A DNA stretch of 64,000 nt from Escherichia phage dhaeg: the sequence record MN850609.1; one strand, written 5' to 3'. Below are positions 4,335 to 29,618 of the stretch, one piece after another. Both the position numbers and the translations under genes were made by a program. The stretch's first letter is position 1. Each line of letters opens with the position of its first letter. The notes below the pieces were generated by a model. It was given only the letters and a program-made list of their open reading frames with translations. It did no database searches and was not told where the DNA came from.

Positions 4335-4607
4335 ATGTTTGTTGTTCATACAATTTCGGACCATGGCCCTACCACTACAATGGATTATGGTCACGTCAAT
4401 CAGTTCTTTCGTCATCAACCTTTATTTAGGATTGCCAAAGAAAATCCTTTATTTAAAGAATGTGTGGAGCAAGGGTTTATTTACATCAGCAAATACGATG
4501 TAAATATGTTTTCCACAGGCAATAATAGAATGATTACCTACAATAAACGCCTTGACTTGCTGTTAGAAGAAGTGGCGTATAATAGAAATCAATCCGGAAG
4601 AAGGTAA
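4335..4607 (+). CDS. hypothetical protein (about 90 aa)
   Basis: Internal ATG 11 codons into the listed ORF, immediately after the upstream TAA. Confidence 0.45.
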   Translation: MFVVHTISDHGPTTTMDYGHVNQFFRHQPLFRIAKENPLFKECVEQGFIYISKYDVNMFSTGNNRMITYNKRLDLLLEEVAYNRNQSGRR

Positions 4608-8402: not shown

Positions 8403-10526
8403 ATGGAAAATTTAAACGAAGTTTTTGATAGTGATTCCGCTAAAAACTATCCAGTAACAAATCTTAAACCAGGCTCCGGTATCCCACAGATTTTCTCTAT
8501 TCAAGCACCAGGTAACGATAACCTGGTTGCTCGTATGGTATCTTATGCGTCTCAAGGAGACGCTATTAAAATGGTTAAGCCCGGCGACAAATACGTTCAT
8601 GTTATTTTAATGAGTTTGTCGAGCAAGGGTGCTCCAGCTGAACTAAAAGGTGGCCTTGGTTCCGACCCACTTGGTACATTGAATACTATTTTCGATACGA
8701 TATATGAACAAGTAAATAAACTTAAAATGGATGCGGTTTTGTTCCGTTTCCCTACCAAGAAAATGAAAGGTAAGGGCCCTACTGTTCAGCGTGTATTAGC
8801 TCGTTTGGCGATGGCACGTACCGGTGGTAAGTTTAAAGTTGTCGATAGCATGTTCCAGTTTAGTGGTAAACATACATACGTTCTTTTAGCACGTCGTGGC
8901 ACTAATATCGAAGATATCAAGGGTATGCCTGAAATTGATGCGGACCTTTATACCAAGGTTGAGTCTAAAGTCGGTGAAGTTTATGTTTCTAAGAAAACCG
9001 GCCAGGCCGTAAGTAAGGTCGAAGCCGTAGCAGCATCTATTGCACAGGTTGAAGAGAAACGTACCGATAAGGCTGTTATCTCTCGTACTAAAATTTCCCG
9101 TCGTATGGCTGCAGCAGCGCAGTATTCTACTGCCGAACCTGAAACTTTATCACCTAAAGAATTGCAGGTTTATAACGAGTTTGAAGCTTCCGTCCCTGTT
9201 CACTCGGCCGAAGGCCCTGAGAACGAAGGTATTGAACAAATTAGCCAGAACTTTAAAAAAGGTGCTATTACTAAAATGCGTCAGGCCTCTCAGTTTAAAT
9301 CTAAGAGTGAGGACCTTGCCAACTTTAGATACACCATTGCTCTCACACACGCTTTAATGACTGATAGTAAATTTAAACTAAATTATGCTAATAGAGATAA
9401 ACAAGGGTTTGAAATTTACTCTAATAATATGGCATTTTTTAATACGGAAGTCGATAGACTTTTAAGCGGCCTTTCTCAAATCAATACTACCAATAGTCTG
9501 GATATTATTAAGAGAATTGTTAATAACCTGAGTGCCCGTTTTCAGGGGTCTCCTTCAGAGAAAGCATCCCGAATTGCTTTCGCTATGGAAGCCGTTTATA
9601 AACTGATTAACGATTCTATTAGCGATGCATATGCTTATTCAGGCGAGCTCATTAAACCTAAGGGCTTGACCAAAGACGAAAGTAATGCCATTATTGAATA
9701 TTGTGCGGCTGAATATGCTCCTATGAACTTATTCCTTTTAGGTAAACCTGAATCCGAAAACAATACAACAGCTATTAAATTGATTAAGGATTTAGACTCA
9801 GCATTTACCAAGGGTATTAAACTTCCTAAGGGTACTATTTTGTATCGTGGTCAGGATTTACCATACAAAATTCTGCGCCATAATATTGATAACAAAACCT
9901 TTTACTTTAAGAACTTTGTATCCGCTTCATTAAAGCCTAATATCTTTGGTGAATTTGGTAAAAATTATATGGCCCTCGACAACCAAGCAGTTTTTGTTGG
10001 TGATGAAGGTTCTTTATCCTCCGCCGATGAGTTGTTTAAATTGGCCAGTGGTAGTTCATCTGACGTAGGTGAAGTTGATGATGAAGAGGTAGAATGGGAA
10101 GAAGACGAGTTTGGTAATCCAATTGCACCTGAAGGCCCTGCAGACAGGATTGCTGAAATTGGTATGGTTATTCGAGGTGCTGAAGCAGTTAAAGTTATCG
10201 CTCCTGGTGACCTTACAGAATATGCCGAAGAAGCGGAAATTATCCTTCCGCGCGGATTATTGTTGAAGGTTGATAAAGTAGCAGCTTTTGCTATGAATGA
10301 TAGGGTATCTCACAAATACCTTATGGAAGCTACAGTGACATCTCCTTCAGAACTCAGTGAGTCCGTTTACGATGGTGACCATCTGATGGAAACCGGCGAA
10401 GTTAAATTGATGAATGGGTTTAAAGAATTCCTAGTTTCAGAATCTGTTTCAGAAAGTAACGAGGCTATGGAAATCCTTGCTGCATCTTTGGACATCTCTT
10501 CTTTACCAAATAAATTCAAAATGTAG
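8403..10526 (+). CDS. Alt-type ADP-ribosyltransferase, paralogue 2
   Basis: 707 aa; first about 180 aa strongly similar to paralogue 1; own R-S-ExE triad (ILYRGQ / FVSASL / AEEAEIILPRG); divergent centre and an acidic insertion (DDEEVEWEEDEFG). Confidence 0.8.
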   Translation: MENLNEVFDSDSAKNYPVTNLKPGSGIPQIFSIQAPGNDNLVARMVSYASQGDAIKMVKPGDKYVHVILMSLSSKGAPAELKGGLGSDPLGTLNTIFDTIYEQVNKLKMDAVLFRFPTKKMKGKGPTVQRVLARLAMARTGGKFKVVDSMFQFSGKHTYVLLARRGTNIEDIKGMPEIDADLYTKVESKVGEVYVSKKTGQAVSKVEAVAASIAQVEEKRTDKAVISRTKISRRMAAAAQYSTAEPETLSPKELQVYNEFEASVPVHSAEGPENEGIEQISQNFKKGAITKMRQASQFKSKSEDLANFRYTIALTHALMTDSKFKLNYANRDKQGFEIYSNNMAFFNTEVDRLLSGLSQINTTNSLDIIKRIVNNLSARFQGSPSEKASRIAFAMEAVYKLINDSISDAYAYSGELIKPKGLTKDESNAIIEYCAAEYAPMNLFLLGKPESENNTTAIKLIKDLDSAFTKGIKLPKGTILYRGQDLPYKILRHNIDNKTFYFKNFVSASLKPNIFGEFGKNYMALDNQAVFVGDEGSLSSADELFKLASGSSSDVGEVDDEEVEWEEDEFGNPIAPEGPADRIAEIGMVIRGAEAVKVIAPGDLTEYAEEAEIILPRGLLLKVDKVAAFAMNDRVSHKYLMEATVTSPSELSESVYDGDHLMETGEVKLMNGFKEFLVSESVSESNEAMEILAASLDISSLPNKFKM

Positions 10527-10555
10527 TTTACAACACCACAAGGATGTGGTACTAT
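10526..10555 (+). promoter_or_regulatory. candidate early promoter GTTTAC-18-TACTAT with internal hairpin
   Basis: Same architecture as the promoters at 1850, 25527, 62616 and 62967; hairpin accaca-agga-tgtggt between -35 and -10. Confidence 0.4.
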
Positions 10556-10583: not shown

Positions 10584-10874
10584 ATGAAATCTGCATTCCG
10601 TTTTAATGGTCAAGAACTGGTAGTTGAAAACGTTATCCCTGCTTCTGAAGAGTTCGACAGTGCAGTAGGTAATGAATTACGTCGAGTTTTCGGCGAAGAC
10701 AAACAGTTCGACTTACGCCCGGTTGAAAATTTTTCACAACCTGAGCAAACCGAAAATATTTTTAATGGTGTAGTAACCGGTCAGCTTGAATCTGAAGCTC
10801 CTATTTCTATCACGGTCTTTGTTAAAAAGCAGCCATTAATGACCGCTGCAGGTTTTATCTCGTTCCGTAAATAA
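10584..10874 (+). CDS. hypothetical protein (96 aa) downstream of alt
   Basis: ORF with gaggag SD; followed by a bidirectional terminator. Confidence 0.5.
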   Translation: MKSAFRFNGQELVVENVIPASEEFDSAVGNELRRVFGEDKQFDLRPVENFSQPEQTENIFNGVVTGQLESEAPISITVFVKKQPLMTAAGFISFRK

Positions 10875-23134: not shown

Positions 23135-24001
23135 TTATTTTTCAGGAGGGACGTAAACTAAGTCTTTCCTTTCTAAGATGTAGCCATTTCTCGACTCTTG
23201 TATCTCTACTTCAGGATACTTAGACAAAAGGTCGGCTACTTTTTGTAACTCACATTTATACTTGTATGGGCTGTTGTTTATATCCAAAGTCCAATCTTCT
23301 CCCAATCTAACGGCTTCTCTTATTTCGTCCCATACCCACCAACCTATCCACATATACGATTCATTTCTTCCACCGCCATAGGGTAAATAAGCATTAAGGT
23401 CGTTATCATATATGAAAGGGCACTGCAATACATCATCCCTAGGTTTTATTTCAACTAAAAGTTCTTCAGAAGCAGGGATATATGCTCCTTCGCAGGTCGC
23501 TATAGATTTTAATGTATAATCTCCAAATTTATCAGGGTCGTCTATTAATATATCAATATCTTCGTCTTTAGATAATTCTACTCCATCTCTATACCATCTA
23601 CAAATTCTTTCGGCATAAGTGGGTTCCACTCTACACGACGGGCGAAGTGAAACTGTTTCTCCTATATTGGCATATATTAATTCCCTAGAGTTTATATCTA
23701 GGACTATTCTTCTTGGAAGGGTACCTATTTCAAGTTCTATTTCGTTACTCTTTGTTATTTCACCACTTTTCTTATTTGTTATGGTCGCATAAAATGTTCC
23801 TGCCGCCGGGAATCCTACTTCCCATAAATTTAATTCAAAAGGGTCTTCGGTAGGAAGTTGTGGAATATGGACATCGTTTTTATACCAATTAATTTCTACG
23901 TCATCTAGAGTAGAACCGGGTGGTAATACAAACCCGGTATAAAAGGTTACTGTCCTGCCAACCAATTCATATCTAGGACCATTTATTTTAAGTACAATCA
24001 T
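23135..24001 (-). CDS. second Hoc-like decoration protein (two Ig-like domains plus shared C-terminal module)
   Basis: 288 aa; Ig-like segments with WYKND / WYRDG motifs; C-terminal YMWIGWWVWDEI...DW...YPEVEIQESRNGYIL parallels the 21449 ORF; strong AAGGAGG SD. Confidence 0.7.
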   Translation of the reverse strand: MIVLKINGPRYELVGRTVTFYTGFVLPPGSTLDDVEINWYKNDVHIPQLPTEDPFELNLWEVGFPAAGTFYATITNKKSGEITKSNEIELEIGTLPRRIVLDINSRELIYANIGETVSLRPSCRVEPTYAERICRWYRDGVELSKDEDIDILIDDPDKFGDYTLKSIATCEGAYIPASEELLVEIKPRDDVLQCPFIYDNDLNAYLPYGGGRNESYMWIGWWVWDEIREAVRLGEDWTLDINNSPYKYKCELQKVADLLSKYPEVEIQESRNGYILERKDLVYVPPEK

Positions 24002-24010
24002 TTAACCTCC

Positions 24011-25516
24011 TTAAAACGTGCTCATATTGGTATGGTCTTCGACAGAAAATAAAACTTCAACAGGGATATCTGTAGTCGTATTAAGAGGGCCGCCTACAAT
24101 AAACACAGATACAGTGTAGTATTTTCTAGTATCACGGTCAAATATTTCGTAACGGTTAAATTGTCTTGCACTAGAATAAGCCAAATCGTCGAATAATTCA
24201 GGAGATGATGACCACAACACATTACTCCAGTTGGCACATTCTATTCCGTTTTCATAGTTGGTAAATCTTTTAATATCAAGCCTATTAGTAAGACCTGCAT
24301 TAGTAGCCCTTATATGGATGCCTACAGATGAGTACATGCGAACATGAAGAACCATATTAAGGTCCCACAAACGTATTTCCTTCCACTCTGAAGTGTTCAG
24401 AGGCTTATCAAATCTTAAAGAGCCTTTCCAATATCTAGGTGGATAGAATGGGAAAAGTTTATCATATAAAGATTTTAATTGAGACTGGGTTAAAGAATCG
24501 ACATCAAATACTGCATCTTTGCCTGGCGCACCTGCAGGACCTATAGGACCTTGAATACCTTGTGGCCCGGGTTCACCCTTTTCACCTTTAGGACCTGGGT
24601 CGCCTTGCGGTCCTTGGGCACCTTGCTCTCCAGGTGCACCATCTTCTCCGGGATTTCCTGGACGCCCTTCTTTTACAAATAAATTCCAATAATCGGCCCA
24701 CAGGTCTCCACTCCCAGGATAACTATCATTATTTGCTATATTATCCTGGATACAAATCCAAGAAGACCCTTCGCACTGGACCAAATCGTTTATATAATAA
24801 GACGAACCAAGGGCCCAGTTTCCGGCCCAGATAAACCCATTACCATCTTGGCCTGGCGCGCCTTGTGGACCTTGAGGGCCGGTTGGGCCTGTTGGTCCTT
24901 GAGGACCTGGTGCACCGATATTAGCCAATAGTGCCCAAACTCCTTCGCTAGGAGGTATTGTTCCTGTATTAGAACTGATGCAAAAATAAGAAGCTCCCTG
25001 GTATCCAACTGCATCGTCTTTAGAGTATTGGGTAGATTCATCCCAGGCTCCCTTCCACACCAAACCTGCCGGGCCTATAGGACCTTGTGGTCCTTGCGGT
25101 CCTACTTCTCCTTGGGCCCCTTGTAAACCCTGAGGGCCTTCTTTTCCTGGTGAACCCGGGTCTCCTTTAGGACCTTCTGGACCTGCTGGTCCTGGTTCGC
25201 CCTTTTCTCCTTTAGGACCGGGGTTACCTTGAATACCTTGCGGCCCTGGGTCTCCTTTAGGGCCTTGTGGACCTTCAGTACCAGGTGTTAGCATCTCATT
25301 AGTTATACCTAAATGGGCCAACGCGCCTTCCCTAGAAGCTTGTTTTATAAATTCAAGTCCATAGCTTTGAGAAGAATCTAGCATAGTAGGGTCTAAGGTG
25401 CTTTCACTAGTGAGTATGTCCACAAATTCCAATGATTTGTTCTGTGGAACTTCTACTAATGATACGCCTCTAAAGTGGCCTCTACCATCATGCCCGTATA
25501 ATGGATTGTCTGACAT
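24011..25516 (-). CDS. collagen-like protein with two CBM5/12-like aromatic modules and a C-terminal globular domain
   Basis: 501 aa; three blocks of uninterrupted Gly-X-Y triplets ([13 protein letters not shown]...) separated by two ~45-aa modules fitting AW-x5-Y-x3-D-x-V-x-Y-x-G-x2-Y-x-C...W; AGGAGA SD; 10 nt upstream of the 23135 ORF. Confidence 0.8.
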
Positions 25517-25526
25517 AAAATCTCCT

Positions 25527-25556
25527 GTTTACAAGTTAAAATTCTCATGTTACTAT
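25527..25556 (+). promoter_or_regulatory. candidate early promoter GTTTAC-18-TACTAT
   Basis: Same hexamer pair as other early promoters in the window; drives the small HTH ORF. Confidence 0.4.
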
Positions 25557-25585
25557 TGAATAGTTCAAATCACAAGAGAACTGTT

Positions 25586-25798
25586 ATGGATAAGATTAAA
25601 GTACATTTTTTACATGAATCGGGTATGAATTTTATTGATATTGCTAAAAAGATTGGCGGAACTGCCAGAGATATGGCTAAAGCCTGGGCCGAAGTTGAGA
25701 ATGCTAAGGCCAAGTTTAAAGCAAAAGAGAAAGTTGTGTATCGTAAAAGATTAAACAACAAAAAGGTCAGCGCAAAGCGCGTTTTTGGTCTAAAGTAA
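25586..25798 (+). CDS. small putative HTH DNA-binding protein (70 aa)
   Basis: Internal ATG (MDKIKVHFL...); helix-turn-helix-like MNFIDIAKKIGGTARDMAKAW followed by a Lys/Arg-rich tail. Confidence 0.45.
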   Translation: MDKIKVHFLHESGMNFIDIAKKIGGTARDMAKAWAEVENAKAKFKAKEKVVYRKRLNNKKVSAKRVFGLK

Positions 25799-25826
25799 TA
25801 TGCTTTAAATTTAGGTGTGTTATAAT
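25799..25826 (+). promoter_or_regulatory. MotA-box middle promoter with extended -10 (TGCTTTA, 13-nt spacer, TGtTATAAT) upstream of rnlB
   Basis: taTGCTTTAaat then tgttataat; matches the T4 middle promoter architecture. Confidence 0.5.
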
Positions 25827-25912
25827 GGGTCTAGGTCCTTCCGTTAAACCATTTGGCTTGGTGACAGAAGATTACTAGCTCTTCTATTTAATTATATTTA
25901 TTATGGTGATTT

Positions 25913-26920
25913 ATGTTCAAGAAATATAGCAGTCTGGAAAACCACTACAACAGTAAGTTTATCGAAAAACTCCGTACCAATGGTTTGACTGGTGGTGAAT
26001 GGGTAGCACGTGAGAAGATTCATGGAACCAACTTTAGTTTAATCATAGAACGTGACGCAGTCACATGCGCCAAGCGCACTGGCCCAATTCTCCCTGCTGA
26101 AGATTTCTATGGTTATGAAATTGTACTTAAGAACTACGCTGATTCTATTAAATCTATACAAGATATTATGGAAACTTCAGCAGCCGTATCTTATCAAGTT
26201 TTCGGTGAATTCGCTGGAACAGGCATTCAGAAGAACGTTGATTACGGTGATAAAGATTTTTATGTATTTGACATTATTGTTACCACCGAAAGCGGCGATG
26301 TGACTTATGTCGACGATTATATGATGGAATCATTTTGTAAGACGTTCAAATTTAAAATGGCACCACTTTTAGGTCGTGGTAAATTTGAAGACCTTATTAA
26401 ATTGCCAAATGATTTAGATTCCGTCCTTCCTGATTATAATTTTACAGTAGATAATGTCGGGCTAGCCGAAGCTAATGCTCATGTGTGGAATGCCGAAGCA
26501 AAAGGCGAAGTATTTACCGCTGAAGGGTACGTATTAAAACCTTGTTATCCGCTTTGGCTGCCTAATGGAAATCGTGTAGCAATTAAATGCAAGAACTCTA
26601 AATTCAGCGAGAAGAAAAAAACTGATAAGCCTATTAAAGTTGCAGTAGTATTATCCCAAGACGATTTAGATTTATTACAACAATTCACAGATTATGTGAC
26701 TGTTAACCGTATTAACAACGTTATCAGTAAGATTGGTGAAGTATCACCTAAAGATTTTGGAAAGGTAATGGGACTGACGGTCCAAGATATTTTGGAAGAG
26801 GCAGCCCGCGAAGAATTAGAATTAACCGATGCAGAAAACCCTGTTGAAGTTAAAAAGCAGCTTATTGAGTGCGTTAAAGATACGCTACGAGCTGTATGGA
26901 TTGAATTAGTATCCAAATAA
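25913..26920 (+). CDS. rnlB: RNA ligase 2 (Rnl2)
   Basis: 335 aa; nucleotidyltransferase motif [10 protein letters not shown] (KxHGxN); long colinear match to remembered T4 Rnl2. Confidence 0.92.
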
Positions 26921-26925
26921 ACAAT

Positions 26926-26947
26926 AAAGGGACCTTACGGTCCCTTT
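26926..26947. terminator. bidirectional terminator aaagggacc-ttac-ggtcccttt between rnlB and the gene 24 paralogue
   Basis: 9-bp stem; T tract downstream on the plus strand and on the minus strand; overlaps the gene 24 paralogue stop codon. Confidence 0.7.
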
Positions 26948-28227
26948 TATTTTTCTAGTGGTGGAAGTTTAACACCGAGATAAGAACTCAACTGGCTTTG
27001 GTTAGCCATTTTGTCCATATCAGAACCATCAATAATGCGGGCTTCTTTATCGTCCTTAGCGACGGTATAAGGGTTTGCAGTCAATGCATAACGAGCAAGC
27101 AATGCTACTGTAGGTTGTAAGCTTTCTGGGTCAACAATAACCTTAAATTCACCTACTGAAGTATCACCTTCTTCATCAACCACATCCAAACCTTCCGTAT
27201 AAGGCGCATAATATAAAGATGCGACCGTCTGTCCTTCACCCATCTGAGCATTTACACCAACAATAACATAATCACATGGACTATTCATATCGGCATAAAG
27301 AGGTAGACCATTCTTTAATACACCATAAGCCAATTCATCTTGGTCTTCCTTTTTCTCAACCCAACCGGATGCAGCGAGAATAGCAGCACAACGAGAACTA
27401 GCTACGGCATAAGTCCCAGCGAAAGAAGTTTGACGTTGGACGGCAGAGTTCATCTCACACATGTAATAATATAATGTACGAGCACGGTCCTGGGCATTAT
27501 CATAACGTGGGTTAGTAAGGTCCAATACGCCCTTTTCAGAAACACCCTGGACTTTAAAACGAGAACTCACTGTAATTAATGACTGTAATACGTCCTTATT
27601 AATTTCTTCTGCCATTTGAATGCCTAGCAGATTTTCAATGAAATTAGGAGCATTAAACCCGTTTGATTCTAGGTCTTGGGCTAATTCGACTGTCAATGAA
27701 GTTTTCAGTTTACGTGATTTAACTTCAGATTGCCATTTGTCAATACGGAAGCCTGCTTCAGCAATTTCAGGATGGCCTTGTTCGAATTTAGAAGTAATAG
27801 CAGCATCTGATACCATACGAATATGCCCAGCGGCCACTGCTTCAGAAATAACTTCACCGAGGTCGGTTTCCGTGGTTCCGGCGAAAGGAGATGCTTCTAG
27901 AACTTTAAACACTACACTTTCAAACTGGAACATATCGCCGGCTGCATAAGCTGTAGACGAATCGGTAAATTCAGGAATATTTTCACGTTCCGACATACCA
28001 ATCTGGCCTGCAAATGTAGCGCCACCAAGATAAGTCATTTTGTCGTCAGGGTTAAGTACACGAACCCCGTACAGAGCAGCAACAGGTTGGCTTGTTTTTT
28101 GTTCAGCAACTAGGGCTTTAAAGATTCGTTTATTAGTTGCTTGGGTGTATGAAAGAAGAGCAGGACGGCCAACCGAGTTGGCAGCCGTCAATGTGGATTC
28201 TTTAATTAGGTCTATAATCTTAGACAT
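26947..28227 (-). CDS. capsid vertex protein gp24 paralogue (divergent second copy)
   Basis: 426 aa; colinear with the adjacent gp24 at roughly half identity by eye (SVGRPALL.. vs SLGRPNLV.., conserved LKTxLTVELAQDLESNGF, ANPYTVAKDDKEARIIDG); 1-nt TAATG overlap. Confidence 0.85.
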   Translation of the reverse strand: MSKIIDLIKESTLTAANSVGRPALLSYTQATNKRIFKALVAEQKTSQPVAALYGVRVLNPDDKMTYLGGATFAGQIGMSERENIPEFTDSSTAYAAGDMFQFESVVFKVLEASPFAGTTETDLGEVISEAVAAGHIRMVSDAAITSKFEQGHPEIAEAGFRIDKWQSEVKSRKLKTSLTVELAQDLESNGFNAPNFIENLLGIQMAEEINKDVLQSLITVSSRFKVQGVSEKGVLDLTNPRYDNAQDRARTLYYYMCEMNSAVQRQTSFAGTYAVASSRCAAILAASGWVEKKEDQDELAYGVLKNGLPLYADMNSPCDYVIVGVNAQMGEGQTVASLYYAPYTEGLDVVDEEGDTSVGEFKVIVDPESLQPTVALLARYALTANPYTVAKDDKEARIIDGSDMDKMANQSQLSSYLGVKLPPLEK

Positions 28228-29510
28228 TAATCAGCCTCGTAAATAATTGCTGGAAGTTTAACACCAAGCAGATAAGACATATTACTCTGACCAGCCATTA
28301 AATCCATATTGGTTGCATCGATAACACGAGCTTCTTTATCGTCTTTAGCTACGGTGTACGGGTTAGCGGACAGTGCATAACGAACCATCAGAGAAATAGA
28401 AGGCTGTAATGAATCCGGGTCGACAATAACCTTATAAGCACCAACGTGTTCTTGGTCGTCTAAATCCAGGCCTTCTGTATATGGGGCATAGAAAATAGAA
28501 CCGACAACTTCATTACCACCATAGTTCTCTTTAACACCTACGATAACATAATCCAATGGGCTGTTAACGTCACAGAACAGAGGTAATCCATTCAACAAAT
28601 AACCATAGGCCGTTTCTGGGAGCCAATTATTATCTTCAGGTCTATGTTTTAACCAGCCAGAACCTGCAAGCATTGCAGCCACACGACTTGAAGCCACAAC
28701 AAACGTACCCGAATAAGAAGTAGTTTTCTGGATTTCAGAATTCATCTCACAAACAATTTCATAAAGTTTACGTGCAGATTCTGGAGCACTATCATAAGTC
28801 AAATCGATGATGCCATTATCAGATACACCCGTAACTTTATAGCGTTTGGATACGGTTATTAGAGATTGCAGAACATCTTTATTAATTTCATCTGCCATTA
28901 CTGTAGCCAGGAGGTCTTCTAAGAATGCAGGGGCGTCGAAGCCATTTGATTCCATATCCTGTGCTAATTCTACGGTCAAAGCAGTCTTCAATTTACGGGT
29001 CTTAACAGGGGCATTCCATTTATTAACCTGGAATACAGCATCAGAGATTTCTACATCACTCTCTTCAAATTTAGTGGTATGGGCTGCATCAGGAACCAAA
29101 CGACACGTTAATGACACCAAACCTTCTTGAAGAGCATCGGCCAATTCTGTAGCGCTAGTGGATGCGAGTGGGCTTGCTTGAAGAGCCTTATAAACCACAT
29201 TCTGATACTTAAAGTAGTCACCCTTGGCAATCGCCTGGGCTTTATCTGTGAGTTCCGGGATAGTTTCACGGTCTTTAGAACCAACTTCACCACCATAAAC
29301 TGCACCGGTTTGGAAACTGAATTCATTATCAGGGGTAAGATATTTGACACCATACAACGCAGCGATAGGTTGGTTTGTACGTTGTTCAGCGATGATATCG
29401 CGATAAATTAGTTTAGTGGTAGCACGGGTCAAAGCAACAAGATTAGGGCGACCCAATGAGTTGCTGGTAGTAGTTGTTGACTCGCGCAGTAATTCGTTAA
29501 TCTTTGCCAT
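28227..29510 (-). CDS. 24: capsid vertex protein gp24
   Basis: 427 aa; MAKINELLRESTTT...SIFYAPYTEGLDLDD...LGVKLP closely matches remembered T4 gp24; LRE near the N-terminus consistent with gp21 processing. Confidence 0.92.
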   Translation of the reverse strand: MAKINELLRESTTTTSNSLGRPNLVALTRATTKLIYRDIIAEQRTNQPIAALYGVKYLTPDNEFSFQTGAVYGGEVGSKDRETIPELTDKAQAIAKGDYFKYQNVVYKALQASPLASTSATELADALQEGLVSLTCRLVPDAAHTTKFEESDVEISDAVFQVNKWNAPVKTRKLKTALTVELAQDMESNGFDAPAFLEDLLATVMADEINKDVLQSLITVSKRYKVTGVSDNGIIDLTYDSAPESARKLYEIVCEMNSEIQKTTSYSGTFVVASSRVAAMLAGSGWLKHRPEDNNWLPETAYGYLLNGLPLFCDVNSPLDYVIVGVKENYGGNEVVGSIFYAPYTEGLDLDDQEHVGAYKVIVDPDSLQPSISLMVRYALSANPYTVAKDDKEARVIDATNMDLMAGQSNMSYLLGVKLPAIIYEAD

Positions 29511-29546: not shown

Positions 29547-29598
29547 AAAGTTGTTTACAGCAAGGTTCCCACGTGTTACTATAGTACAGAAACAAGAA

Positions 29599-29618
29599 TG
29601 GGAGACCGAAGTCTCCCA
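29599..29618 (-). terminator. hairpin tgggagac-NNNN-gtctccca after gene 23
   Basis: 8-bp stem 16 nt past the gene 23 stop; T-rich on the minus strand after the stem. Confidence 0.6.

What the first reader, a model, noticed from the sequence alone, without database searches (positions are those of the whole stretch)
25586..25798. Small HTH-like protein with its own early promoter, divergent from the collagen / Hoc-like operon
The 70-aa product has a helix-turn-helix-like core and a basic tail and sits between the collagen-like operon and rnlB, behind a GTTTAC-N18-TACTAT promoter. It could be a local transcriptional regulator of the accessory decoration genes.
Basis: inference. Interest (0 to 1): 0.35.

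Follow-up and report, generated by a model that had tools for sequence, protein, structure and literature searches.

The report
T4 gene 24.3 homologue (DUF2774)
This is a real, conserved small gene with its own early-type promoter, the counterpart of phage T4 gene 24.3. It is a helix-turn-helix protein of unknown function found in hundreds of T4-like phages, so it is an ordinary known gene and not a dedicated regulator of the neighbouring collagen-like genes.

Summary
ORF 25586..25798 (+, 70 aa) is a real gene under strong purifying selection (dN/dS 0.05-0.12). It lies behind GTTTAC-N18-TACTAT with an extended -10 (TGt), and it diverges from the collagen-like gene that starts at 25516 (-).

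It is the Dhakavirus counterpart of T4 gene 24.3 (Pfam DUF2774, E 3.5e-29; 100% identical to phage dhabil gp239). AlphaFold gives a confident three-helix HTH (residues 2-46). This is followed by the family's most conserved element, [RK]E[KR][VI]VYRKR, and a variable basic tail.

The promoter type GTTTAC-N12-16-TGnTAYTAT occurs 4 times in the window against 0.02 expected. It is kept in JS98, which lacks the collagen/Hoc-like cassette.

The gene is found in 567 phage records. The collagen-like protein's C-terminal domain is found in 17. The "local regulator of decoration genes" reading is therefore not supported.

In T4, 24.3 has a mapped promoter, an early RNA and a detected protein, and its knock-down costs no fitness. 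The most likely role is an accessory pre-replicative nucleic-acid-binding or docking protein. That role is inferred, not shown. The gene is already known and of low interest.

The parts
25527..25532 (+). -35 element GTTTAC (T4 early-promoter type)
   Evidence: Read directly. Invariant in JS98, VR5 and VR25. Part of a motif found 4 times against 0.02 expected.
25548..25556 (+). Extended -10, TGtTACTAT. The expected transcription start is near 25563.
   Evidence: JS98, VR5 and VR25 have TGtTAAGAT at the same place. The start site is inferred, not mapped. In T4 the mapped P24.3 start lies 23 nt upstream of the ATG.
25576..25579 (+). Weak Shine-Dalgarno GAGA, 6 nt before the ATG
   Evidence: GAGA or GGGA stands at the same distance in JS98, VR5, VR25, T4 and PhAPEC2.
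25586..25798 (+). CDS of 70 aa: DUF2774, the counterpart of T4 gp24.3
   Evidence: Pfam E 3.5e-29. BLASTP against T4 gp24.3 gives 43% identity, E 2e-13. It is 100% identical to dhabil_239. dN/dS is 0.05-0.12.
25589..25723 (+). Residues 2-46: predicted three-helix HTH (H2-11, H16-23, H27-46), net charge about 0 over residues 1-40
   Evidence: AF2. Foldseek lists are dominated by HTH domains, none significant. Sub-threshold HTH_38, HTH_7, GerE and Sigma70_r4_2 hits occur in family members.
25724..25753 (+). Residues 47-56, KEKVVYRKRL: the most conserved segment of the family ([RK]E[KR][VI]VYRKR[LHM]; Y52 and R53 invariant)
   Evidence: Column statistics on 76 sequences. Synonymous changes in the DNA show that the constraint is on the protein. 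AF2 models short strand bridges here at lower confidence (block-mean pLDDT about 65).
25754..25795 (+). Residues 57-70: variable basic tail
   Evidence: The tail differs by a frameshift between window/VR5 (KKVSAKRVFGLK) and JS98/IME08 (KVRRKARSSSK). Other genera have a C-terminal helix instead.
25769..25793 (+). Weak hairpin (GCGC-AAA-GCGC) plus T-run inside the 3' end of the CDS: a possible leaky terminator before rnlB
   Evidence: Terminator-like scan. The DNA is retained in JS98 and VR5 although the reading frame differs. Function not shown.
25801..25826 (+). Neighbouring element: MotA-box-type middle promoter for rnlB (TGCTTTA, N13, TGtTATAAT)
   Evidence: Read directly. It matches the published MotA box and spacing. 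It is conserved across genera. T4 has a mapped PrnlB.
25913..26920 (+). rnlB (RNA ligase 2), the downstream gene on the same strand
   Evidence: ORF list and the dhabil annotation.
24011..25516 (-). Context only: divergent collagen-like gene. Its Shine-Dalgarno (AGGAG, the reverse complement of 25523..25527) abuts the -35 of the 24.3 promoter.
   Evidence: The cassette is absent from JS98 and T4.

Best explanation
The ORF is the Dhakavirus counterpart of phage T4 gene 24.3 (Pfam DUF2774).

Shown, or close to shown:
- It is transcribed before the late period by host sigma-70 RNA polymerase, from its own T4-early-type promoter (-35 GTTTAC, TGn, -10).
- In most genera it is the first gene after hoc, and it heads the string of small genes that leads to rnlB.

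Predicted from the models:
- The protein is a neutral three-helix HTH, followed by an almost invariant basic segment (VVYRKR) and a variable basic tail.

Inferred:
- It is an accessory protein of the pre-replicative period that binds nucleic acid, most probably DNA. It would do so in a winged-HTH-like manner, in which the invariant basic segment supplies most of the contact.
- It acts phage-wide or on the host, not on the adjacent collagen/Hoc-like cassette.
- It is dispensable for growth on laboratory E. coli.
For: Identity
- DUF2774 at E 3.5e-29 and phrog_1566.
- 43% identity to T4 gp24.3, E 2e-13. T4 gp24.3 is itself DUF2774.
- The same position and strand relative to hoc and rnlB in T4, JS98, PhAPEC2, S16, Karamvirus and Klebsiella phages.

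Coding
- dN/dS is 0.05-0.12.

Promoter
- The motif type occurs 4 times against 0.02 expected.
- It is conserved in JS98, VR5 and VR25.
- Homology of 79 records begins at about 25506-25519, whatever lies upstream.
- T4 early promoters are of the -35/TGn/-10 type (PMC2988021).
- T4 has a mapped P24.3 start 23 nt before the ATG.

Expression
- The T4 24.3 RNA is classed early and the protein is detected (PMC9697503 Table S2).

Fold
- AF2 mean pLDDT is 80.8 for this protein and 87.1 for a Klebsiella homologue, with the same three helices in both.
- Top Foldseek matches are HTH or winged-HTH DNA binders, with rmsd 0.4-1.2 A over 32-48 residues.
- Sub-threshold HTH Pfam hits occur in up to 11 of 76 members.

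Functional hot spot
- Residues 47-56 carry the highest information content, and the C-terminal half has a net charge of +12.

Dispensability
- CRISPRi-ART knock-down of T4 24.3 is scored 'Not Fit', with score -0.52 and p 0.86 (PMC11879866 supplement).
Against: - No experiment on any family member shows nucleic-acid binding. No paper was found that names DUF2774 or gp24.3.
- No Foldseek match is significant: the best E is 0.54 and 0.21. No HTH Pfam family reaches its cut-off.
- The exposed positions of helix 3 (28, 32, 33, 36, 39) vary, and position 29 is a conserved acid. That is unusual for a sequence-reading recognition helix.
- The invariant segment is modelled with low confidence, about pLDDT 65. 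It could equally be a docking motif for a protein.
Confidence: 0.6

Rival explanations
1. Local regulator. The protein binds the 69-nt divergent intergenic DNA and controls the collagen-like and Hoc-like decoration genes.
For: The genes are divergent. The collagen-like gene's Shine-Dalgarno abuts the -35 of the 24.3 promoter. An HTH fold is predicted. No canonical late promoter is evident for the cassette, so its control is unexplained.
Against: The gene and its promoter are present without the cassette in JS98. The gene is at the same position in T4, PhAPEC2, S16, Karamvirus and Klebsiella phages, which lack the cassette. There are 567 records with the gene and 17 with the collagen-like C-terminal domain. 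The family's invariant residues do not differ between phages with and without the cassette.
Confidence: 0.05
2. Autoregulator of its own transcription unit. The HTH protein binds at its own promoter and tunes expression of 24.3 and the read-through into rnlB.
For: Small HTH genes at the head of operons often autoregulate (general knowledge). The block 25522..25549, spacer included, is identical in four phages apart from a one-base indel, although the coding DNA is about 80% identical.
Against: Other genera have entirely different promoters at this place. S16, Ecl04 and Roth76 have MotA-box type promoters, and T4 has a mapped middle promoter. Yet they keep the same invariant protein motif. No repeat or palindrome suggestive of an operator was seen by eye; no repeat search was run on this region. 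rnlB has its own promoter.
Confidence: 0.12
3. Protein-docking host-takeover or counter-defence factor. The HTH-like bundle is only a scaffold. The invariant VVYRKR segment docks, probably by strand addition, onto a conserved host or phage protein such as RNA polymerase, a protease or a defence protein.
For: The strongest conservation lies in a short linear segment that AF2 leaves poorly ordered, as expected for a motif that folds on binding. The HTH surface is variable and neutral. The gene is expressed early and is dispensable in the laboratory, as many T4 takeover and anti-defence genes are.
Against: No partner is known. There is no significant match to known defence-system models, and the one PADLOC hit (Cas1, E 0.002) looks spurious. 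A +12 tail points first to nucleic acid.
Confidence: 0.22
4. RNA-binding helper of the RNA-repair genes. The protein binds RNA (tRNA or nicked duplex RNA) and works with RnlB, which lies in the same gene string.
For: The gene is constantly linked upstream of rnlB across genera. The tail is arginine- and lysine-rich.
Against: Krischvirus GEC-3S keeps the gene, but no rnlB is annotated in the stretch retrieved. Linkage in T4-like phages often reflects shared timing only. There is no similarity to known RNA-binding domains.
Confidence: 0.06

Closest known systems
Phage T4 gp24.3 (56 aa; UniProt P39492), Pfam DUF2774 / phrog_1566
   Same: Same family. Same position between hoc and rnlB on the rnlB strand. 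Same HTH core and VVYRKR motif. Pre-late expression from its own promoter.
   Different: T4 lacks 11 residues of helix 3 that most relatives have. The T4 promoter is a mapped middle promoter with a poor MotA box; here the promoter is of the early -35/TGn/-10 type. T4 has gene 24.2 between 24.3 and rnlB; here there is a 114-nt non-coding stretch. Here the upstream neighbour is an inverted collagen/Hoc-like cassette and not hoc itself.
Simple three-helix HTH domains of the Hin / psq / HTH_38 / HTH_7 / sigma-70 region 4 kind
   Same: Predicted helix-helix-turn-helix geometry. Low rmsd to IstA, RcsB, SIRV1 ORF55 and small-terminase HTH domains. Sub-threshold profile hits. The BFVD neighbour beyond the family is an 'HTH psq-type' protein of Aeromonas phage Aeh1.
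   Different: No family cut-off is reached. Helix 3 is about 20 residues long. Its exposed residues are variable and poor in the polar and basic side chains that usually read bases. The family-specific VVYRKR segment has no counterpart.
Winged-helix regulators (MarR/MepR, DtxR/MntR, DeoR, LysR DNA-binding domains)
   Same: The order helix-turn-helix, then a short basic strand pair, then a helix resembles HTH plus wing. These proteins top the Foldseek list for the Klebsiella homologue.
   Different: E-values are 0.2-1, and the rmsd is 15 A over the full length. The 'wing' is modelled with low confidence and sits after an unusually long helix. There is no dimerisation domain.
T4 Alt.-3 ('anti-TA protein alt3', as a homologue is labelled in Klebsiella phage Roth76)
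   Same: Both are small early T4 proteins of unknown native function.
   Different: There is no sequence relation: hhalign probability 0.4%. Only mutant, extended Alt.-3 blocks CmdTAC (PMC11618068). The label is not supported.

Membership tests
Pfam DUF2774 (PF11242) / T4 gp24.3 family | Profile score above the curated cut-off over the whole domain | tested here: met
   101.2 bits against a cut-off of 29.2, profile positions 1-61 of 63. phrog_1566 at E 3e-32.
Pfam DUF2774 (PF11242) / T4 gp24.3 family | Family motif [RK]E[KR][VI]VYRKR after the HTH core | tested here: met
   KEKVVYRKRL at residues 47-56. Y52 and R53 are invariant in 76 sequences.
Pfam DUF2774 (PF11242) / T4 gp24.3 family | Position counterpart of T4 24.3: downstream of hoc, upstream of rnlB, on the rnlB strand | tested here: met
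   Here an inverted cassette separates it from hoc.
HTH DNA-binding domains (HTH_38, HTH_7, GerE, Sigma70_r4_2) | Profile score above a family's gathering cut-off | tested here: not met
   There is no HTH hit for this protein at E up to 10. Members reach only E 3.5e-4 to 4e-3, below the cut-offs.
HTH DNA-binding domains (HTH_38, HTH_7, GerE, Sigma70_r4_2) | Three-helix fold with a helix-turn-helix | tested here: inconclusive
   The three helices are confident (block-mean pLDDT 87-96) in two models. Foldseek lists are dominated by HTH domains, but the best E is 0.2-0.5.
HTH DNA-binding domains (HTH_38, HTH_7, GerE, Sigma70_r4_2) | Binds DNA | not testable with these tools
   This needs EMSA, DAP-seq or ChIP. 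No published data were found.
Winged-helix proteins | Beta-hairpin wing packed next to the recognition helix | tested here: inconclusive
   DSSP finds strand bridges at 50-51 and 54-55, but the block pLDDT is about 65.
T4-type early promoter | -35, TGn and -10 elements for sigma-70 RNA polymerase at the correct spacing, upstream of a gene on the early strand | tested here: met
   GTTTAC(A), N17-18, TGt, TACTAT. The class is enriched at 4 against 0.02 expected. The definition comes from PMC2988021.
T4-type early promoter | Transcript 5' end a few bases downstream of the -10, immediately after infection | not testable with these tools
   Only T4 data are available: the RNA is classed early, and the P24.3 start is mapped but listed as a middle promoter.
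MotA-dependent middle promoter | MotA box (a/t)(a/t)(a/t)TGCTTtA placed 12 +/- 1 bp upstream of the -10 | tested here: not met
   At that position the 24.3 promoter reads TACAAGTTA. By contrast, the rnlB promoter at 25801..25826 meets the criterion.
Anti-toxin-antitoxin protein Alt.-3 | Sequence or profile similarity to T4 Alt.-3 | tested here: not met
   hhalign probability 0.4%, with 9 aligned columns.
DNA primase-helicase subunit (a label on some homologues) | Primase or helicase domains | tested here: not met
   The protein is 70 aa and DUF2774 is its only domain. The label appears to spread from a 243-aa KPP95 entry.

The most novel reading that the evidence does not exclude
DUF2774 proteins are a so far unstudied class of T4-like pre-replicative factors. 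In this reading, the invariant VVYRKR segment, and not the HTH, is the active part. It would clamp onto a conserved target: the polymerase or another host machine, or the phage's modified DNA through backbone or minor-groove contacts that avoid glucosylated bases. The effect would be to tune takeover or to counter a defence system absent from laboratory strains.
Probability: 0.2. Interest if true: 0.45.

Novelty: already known. Interest (0 to 1): 0.15.

Why it matters
It matters little as a discovery. The gene is already deposited (dhabil_239) and belongs to a Pfam family named after T4 gp24.3.

The useful outcome is negative. The adjacency to the collagen/Hoc-like cassette is an accident of where the cassette was inserted, just upstream of an existing promoter. 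It is not a regulatory pairing.

The analysis also gives the family a sharper description: a neutral HTH plus an invariant VVYRKR segment, early expression, and dispensability in T4. That would guide anyone who wants to assign a function to one of the many conserved T4 genes still unexplained.

Tried and rejected
- Alternative start at 25547 (83 aa). It lies inside the -10 region, and the Pfam match begins at residue 14 of that version. Rejected.
- 'Anti-TA protein alt3' label on the Roth76 homologue. There is no relation to T4 Alt.-3. Rejected.
- 'DNA primase-helicase subunit' label. No such domain is present. Rejected.
- Sequence search of the PDB with the protein and with the family profile. 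It returned only weak HTH-containing hits (RpoE, VirB, IstA) at E 0.02-0.2 and a designed repeat protein.
- Long proteins P0126 and P0130 from the exhaustive search. They are SUMO-like repeat proteins, so the matches are spurious.
- PADLOC and NCBIfam. Nothing credible: Cas1 at E 0.002, HTH_Cbp1 at 0.0026.
- Paralogues in the window. None.
- Rfam, and folding of the non-coding stretch before rnlB. No match, and z-score 0.30.
- A late promoter for the divergent cassette. There is no exact TATAAATA on the minus strand between 25516 and 29539, only one-mismatch variants. Left unexplained.
- Literature. Nothing for DUF2774, gp24.3 or P39492. The T4 genome review PMC150520 is not held. One badly chosen search returned only unrelated papers.

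Full report
**What is in the sequence**

The ORF runs from ATG 25586 to the stop ending at 25798 on the + strand and encodes 70 aa. Upstream lie GTTTAC (25527..25532), 18 nt, then TACTAT (25551..25556). TG at 25548..25549 makes this an extended -10. A weak GAGA ribosome-binding site sits at 25576..25579.

The collagen-like ORF (24011..25516) and a Hoc-like ORF (23135..24001) are on the opposite strand. The collagen-like gene's AGGAG abuts the -35 hexamer. rnlB (25913..26920) follows on the same strand as the ORF. The window is a Dhakavirus (T4-like, Straboviridae). The protein is 100% identical to dhabil_239 of Escherichia phage dhabil, which is annotated as hypothetical.

**Is it real?**

Yes. 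Three lines agree:
- The protein matches Pfam DUF2774 at E 3.5e-29 (101 bits against a cut-off of 29.2) and phrog_1566 at 3e-32.
- tblastn finds it in 567 phage records, nearly all T4-like phages of Enterobacterales.
- Against JS98 and VR5, codons 1-60 give dN/dS of 0.05-0.12 with synonymous sites close to saturation.

The upstream ATG at 25547 lies inside the -10 element and outside the family profile, so it is not the start.

**What it is**

It is the counterpart of T4 gene 24.3.
- BLASTP against T4 gp24.3 gives 43% identity and E 2e-13, with an 11-residue gap that is specific to T4.
- T4 gp24.3 is itself DUF2774.
- There is no similarity to T4 gp24.2.

The gene order is also conserved. In T4, JS98, PhAPEC2 (Mosigvirus), S16 (Gelderlandvirus), a Karamvirus and a Klebsiella phage, the gene is the first one after hoc and heads the string of small genes that leads to rnlB. 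In Pm5461 and GEC-3S, other small ORFs precede it.

The family is small and confined. An exhaustive search of 1.84 billion representatives found 33 at E <= 0.001. The two long hits are SUMO-like repeat proteins and are spurious.

**The promoter**

A generic sigma-70 scan does not enrich this region: 14 sites against 11.9 expected. By that test alone the site would not count. Four other results do support it:
- The specific type GTTTAC-N12-16-TGnTAYTAT occurs four times in the window. All four are on the + strand and between genes. The expectation is 0.02.
- The block TCCTGTTTACAAGTTAAAA(A)T...ATGTTA is conserved in JS98, VR5 and VR25.
- Homology of 79 phage records to this region starts at about 25506-25519, whatever lies further upstream.
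- T4 early promoters are described as -35/TGn/-10 promoters with UP elements (PMC2988021).

In T4 itself a promoter P24.3 has been mapped, with its start at 110108, 23 nt before the ATG. It is listed among the middle promoters. S16, a Karamvirus and a Klebsiella phage have TGCTTTT or TGCTATT, N12, TAnnAT at this place, which is the MotA-box arrangement. The gene therefore has its own pre-late promoter everywhere, but the promoter class differs between genera.

In T4 the 24.3 RNA is classed early and the protein is detected (PMC9697503 Table S2).

**The protein**

AlphaFold2 on a 76-sequence alignment gives mean pLDDT 80.8. It predicts helices at 2-11, 16-23 and 27-46, and block means of 87-93 over the first 40 residues. 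The tail is at 56-65. A Klebsiella homologue gives the same three helices at 93-96, short strand bridges at the conserved motif (about 66), and a C-terminal helix.

Foldseek against the PDB returns no significant match; the best E-values are 0.54 and 0.21. The lists nevertheless consist almost wholly of HTH and winged-HTH DNA-binding domains: Lrp/AsnC, IstA, RcsB, GcrA, DeoR, MepR, MntR, SIRV1 ORF55 and a small terminase. The rmsd is 0.4-1.2 A over 32-48 residues. In BFVD the neighbours are family members and then an 'HTH psq-type' protein of Aeromonas phage Aeh1. Family members give sub-threshold Pfam hits to HTH_38 (11 of 76), HTH_7 (9), GerE (5) and Sigma70_r4_2 (4).

The HTH fold is therefore well supported as a prediction. 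Membership of any named HTH family is not.

Column statistics show that the conserved HTH positions are core and turn residues: E11, G13, F16, I19, A20, G24, A27, W34, V37 and A40. The exposed positions of helix 3 vary. The peak of conservation is residues 47-56, [RK]E[KR][VI]VYRKR[LHM]. Synonymous variation in the DNA shows that this constraint acts on the protein.

Residues 1-40 are neutral. Residues 41-70 have 13 K/R and 1 D/E. Beyond about residue 60 the tail is not conserved. Window and VR5 differ from JS98 and IME08 by a frameshift.

A dedicated regulator of the collagen/Hoc-like genes should travel with them. It does not.
- JS98, the type Dhakavirus, has hoc, then the same promoter and gene, then rnlB, with no cassette.
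- T4, PhAPEC2, S16, a Karamvirus and Klebsiella phages also lack the cassette.
- The C-terminal domain of the collagen-like protein is found in 17 phage records, against 567 for this gene.

The cassette, which is also present in VR5 and VR25, appears to have been inserted just upstream of a promoter that already existed.

**Most likely mechanism**

Shown directly or through the T4 counterpart: a conserved gene, pre-late expression from its own promoter, a detected protein, and no fitness cost when knocked down in T4 (CRISPRi-ART 'Not Fit', score -0.52, p 0.86; PMC11879866 supplement).

Predicted: an HTH fold plus a basic segment.

Inferred: an accessory nucleic-acid-binding protein of the pre-replicative period, in which the invariant basic segment supplies most of the contact. 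I put the identification at about 0.97 and the mechanism at about 0.4.

The main rival is that the invariant segment is a docking motif for a conserved host or phage protein. Its poor order in the models and the bland HTH surface favour that reading. Autoregulation of its own unit and a role with RnlB on RNA are less likely. The local-regulator idea is the least likely.

**Labels on homologues that do not hold**
- 'Anti-TA protein alt3' in Klebsiella phage Roth76. hhalign probability against T4 Alt.-3 is 0.4%, and only mutant Alt.-3 blocks CmdTAC.
- 'DNA primase-helicase subunit'. No such domain is present.

**Verdict**

The structural and promoter parts of the interpretation are supported, and the proposed function is not. 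The gene is an already known conserved hypothetical (T4 gp24.3, DUF2774). Interest is low.

Noticed in passing
window 25799..25912: The 114-nt non-coding stretch between this gene and rnlB is 96.5-100% identical in 50 phage records. The adjacent 24.3 coding DNA is only about 80% identical, with dS above 1. The high identity continues into about the first 250 nt of rnlB. The stretch holds a MotA-box middle promoter (TGCTTTA 25801..25807, N13, TGtTATAAT ending at 25826) that is conserved across genera. There is no Rfam match and no unusual folding. Whether this reflects selection or a recombination patch is undecided.
   Followed up: partly
window 29553..29582 (+): A fourth copy of the early-type promoter (GTTTACAGCAAGGTTCCCACGTGTTACTAT) sits between the gene 24 paralogue and gene 23. 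No ORF of 30 aa or more lies downstream. It points antisense into the gene 23 terminator hairpin (29601..29618) and the 3' end of gene 23. T4 has segD at this place, and PhAPEC2 has a small ORF.
   Followed up: partly
window 23135..25516 (-): The collagen-like/Hoc-like cassette has no exact late promoter TATAAATA on its strand anywhere between its start and 29539. The nearest variant is AATAAATA at 25895..25902 (-), just before the rnlB start. At that place VR25, PhAPEC2, S16 and a Karamvirus have an exact TATAAATA on the minus strand. It would read antisense through 24.3. How the cassette is transcribed is unexplained.
   Followed up: partly
window 25754..25798: The 3' end of the gene differs by a frameshift between close relatives (KKVSAKRVFGLK against KVRRKARSSSK). 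The underlying GCGCAAAGCGCG-T-run hairpin DNA is kept. It may be a leaky terminator that matters more than the peptide it encodes.
   Followed up: no
window 10526..10555 (+) and 10584..10874 (+): Another copy of the early-type promoter precedes a 96-aa ORF that follows a 707-aa ORF. In T4 the 96-aa gene alt.-3 lies downstream of alt, so this could be its counterpart. That rests on position and length alone; the homology was not checked.
   Followed up: no
window 26947..29510 (-): There are two tandem gene 24 (head vertex) paralogues of 426 and 427 aa, as in JS98 (24a and 24b). T4 has one.
   Followed up: no
L002 (T4) 4416..4586 compared with relatives: T4 gp24.3 lacks 11 residues of helix 3 (the AMTAKNKFET stretch) that close T4 relatives and all other genera keep.
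   Followed up: no
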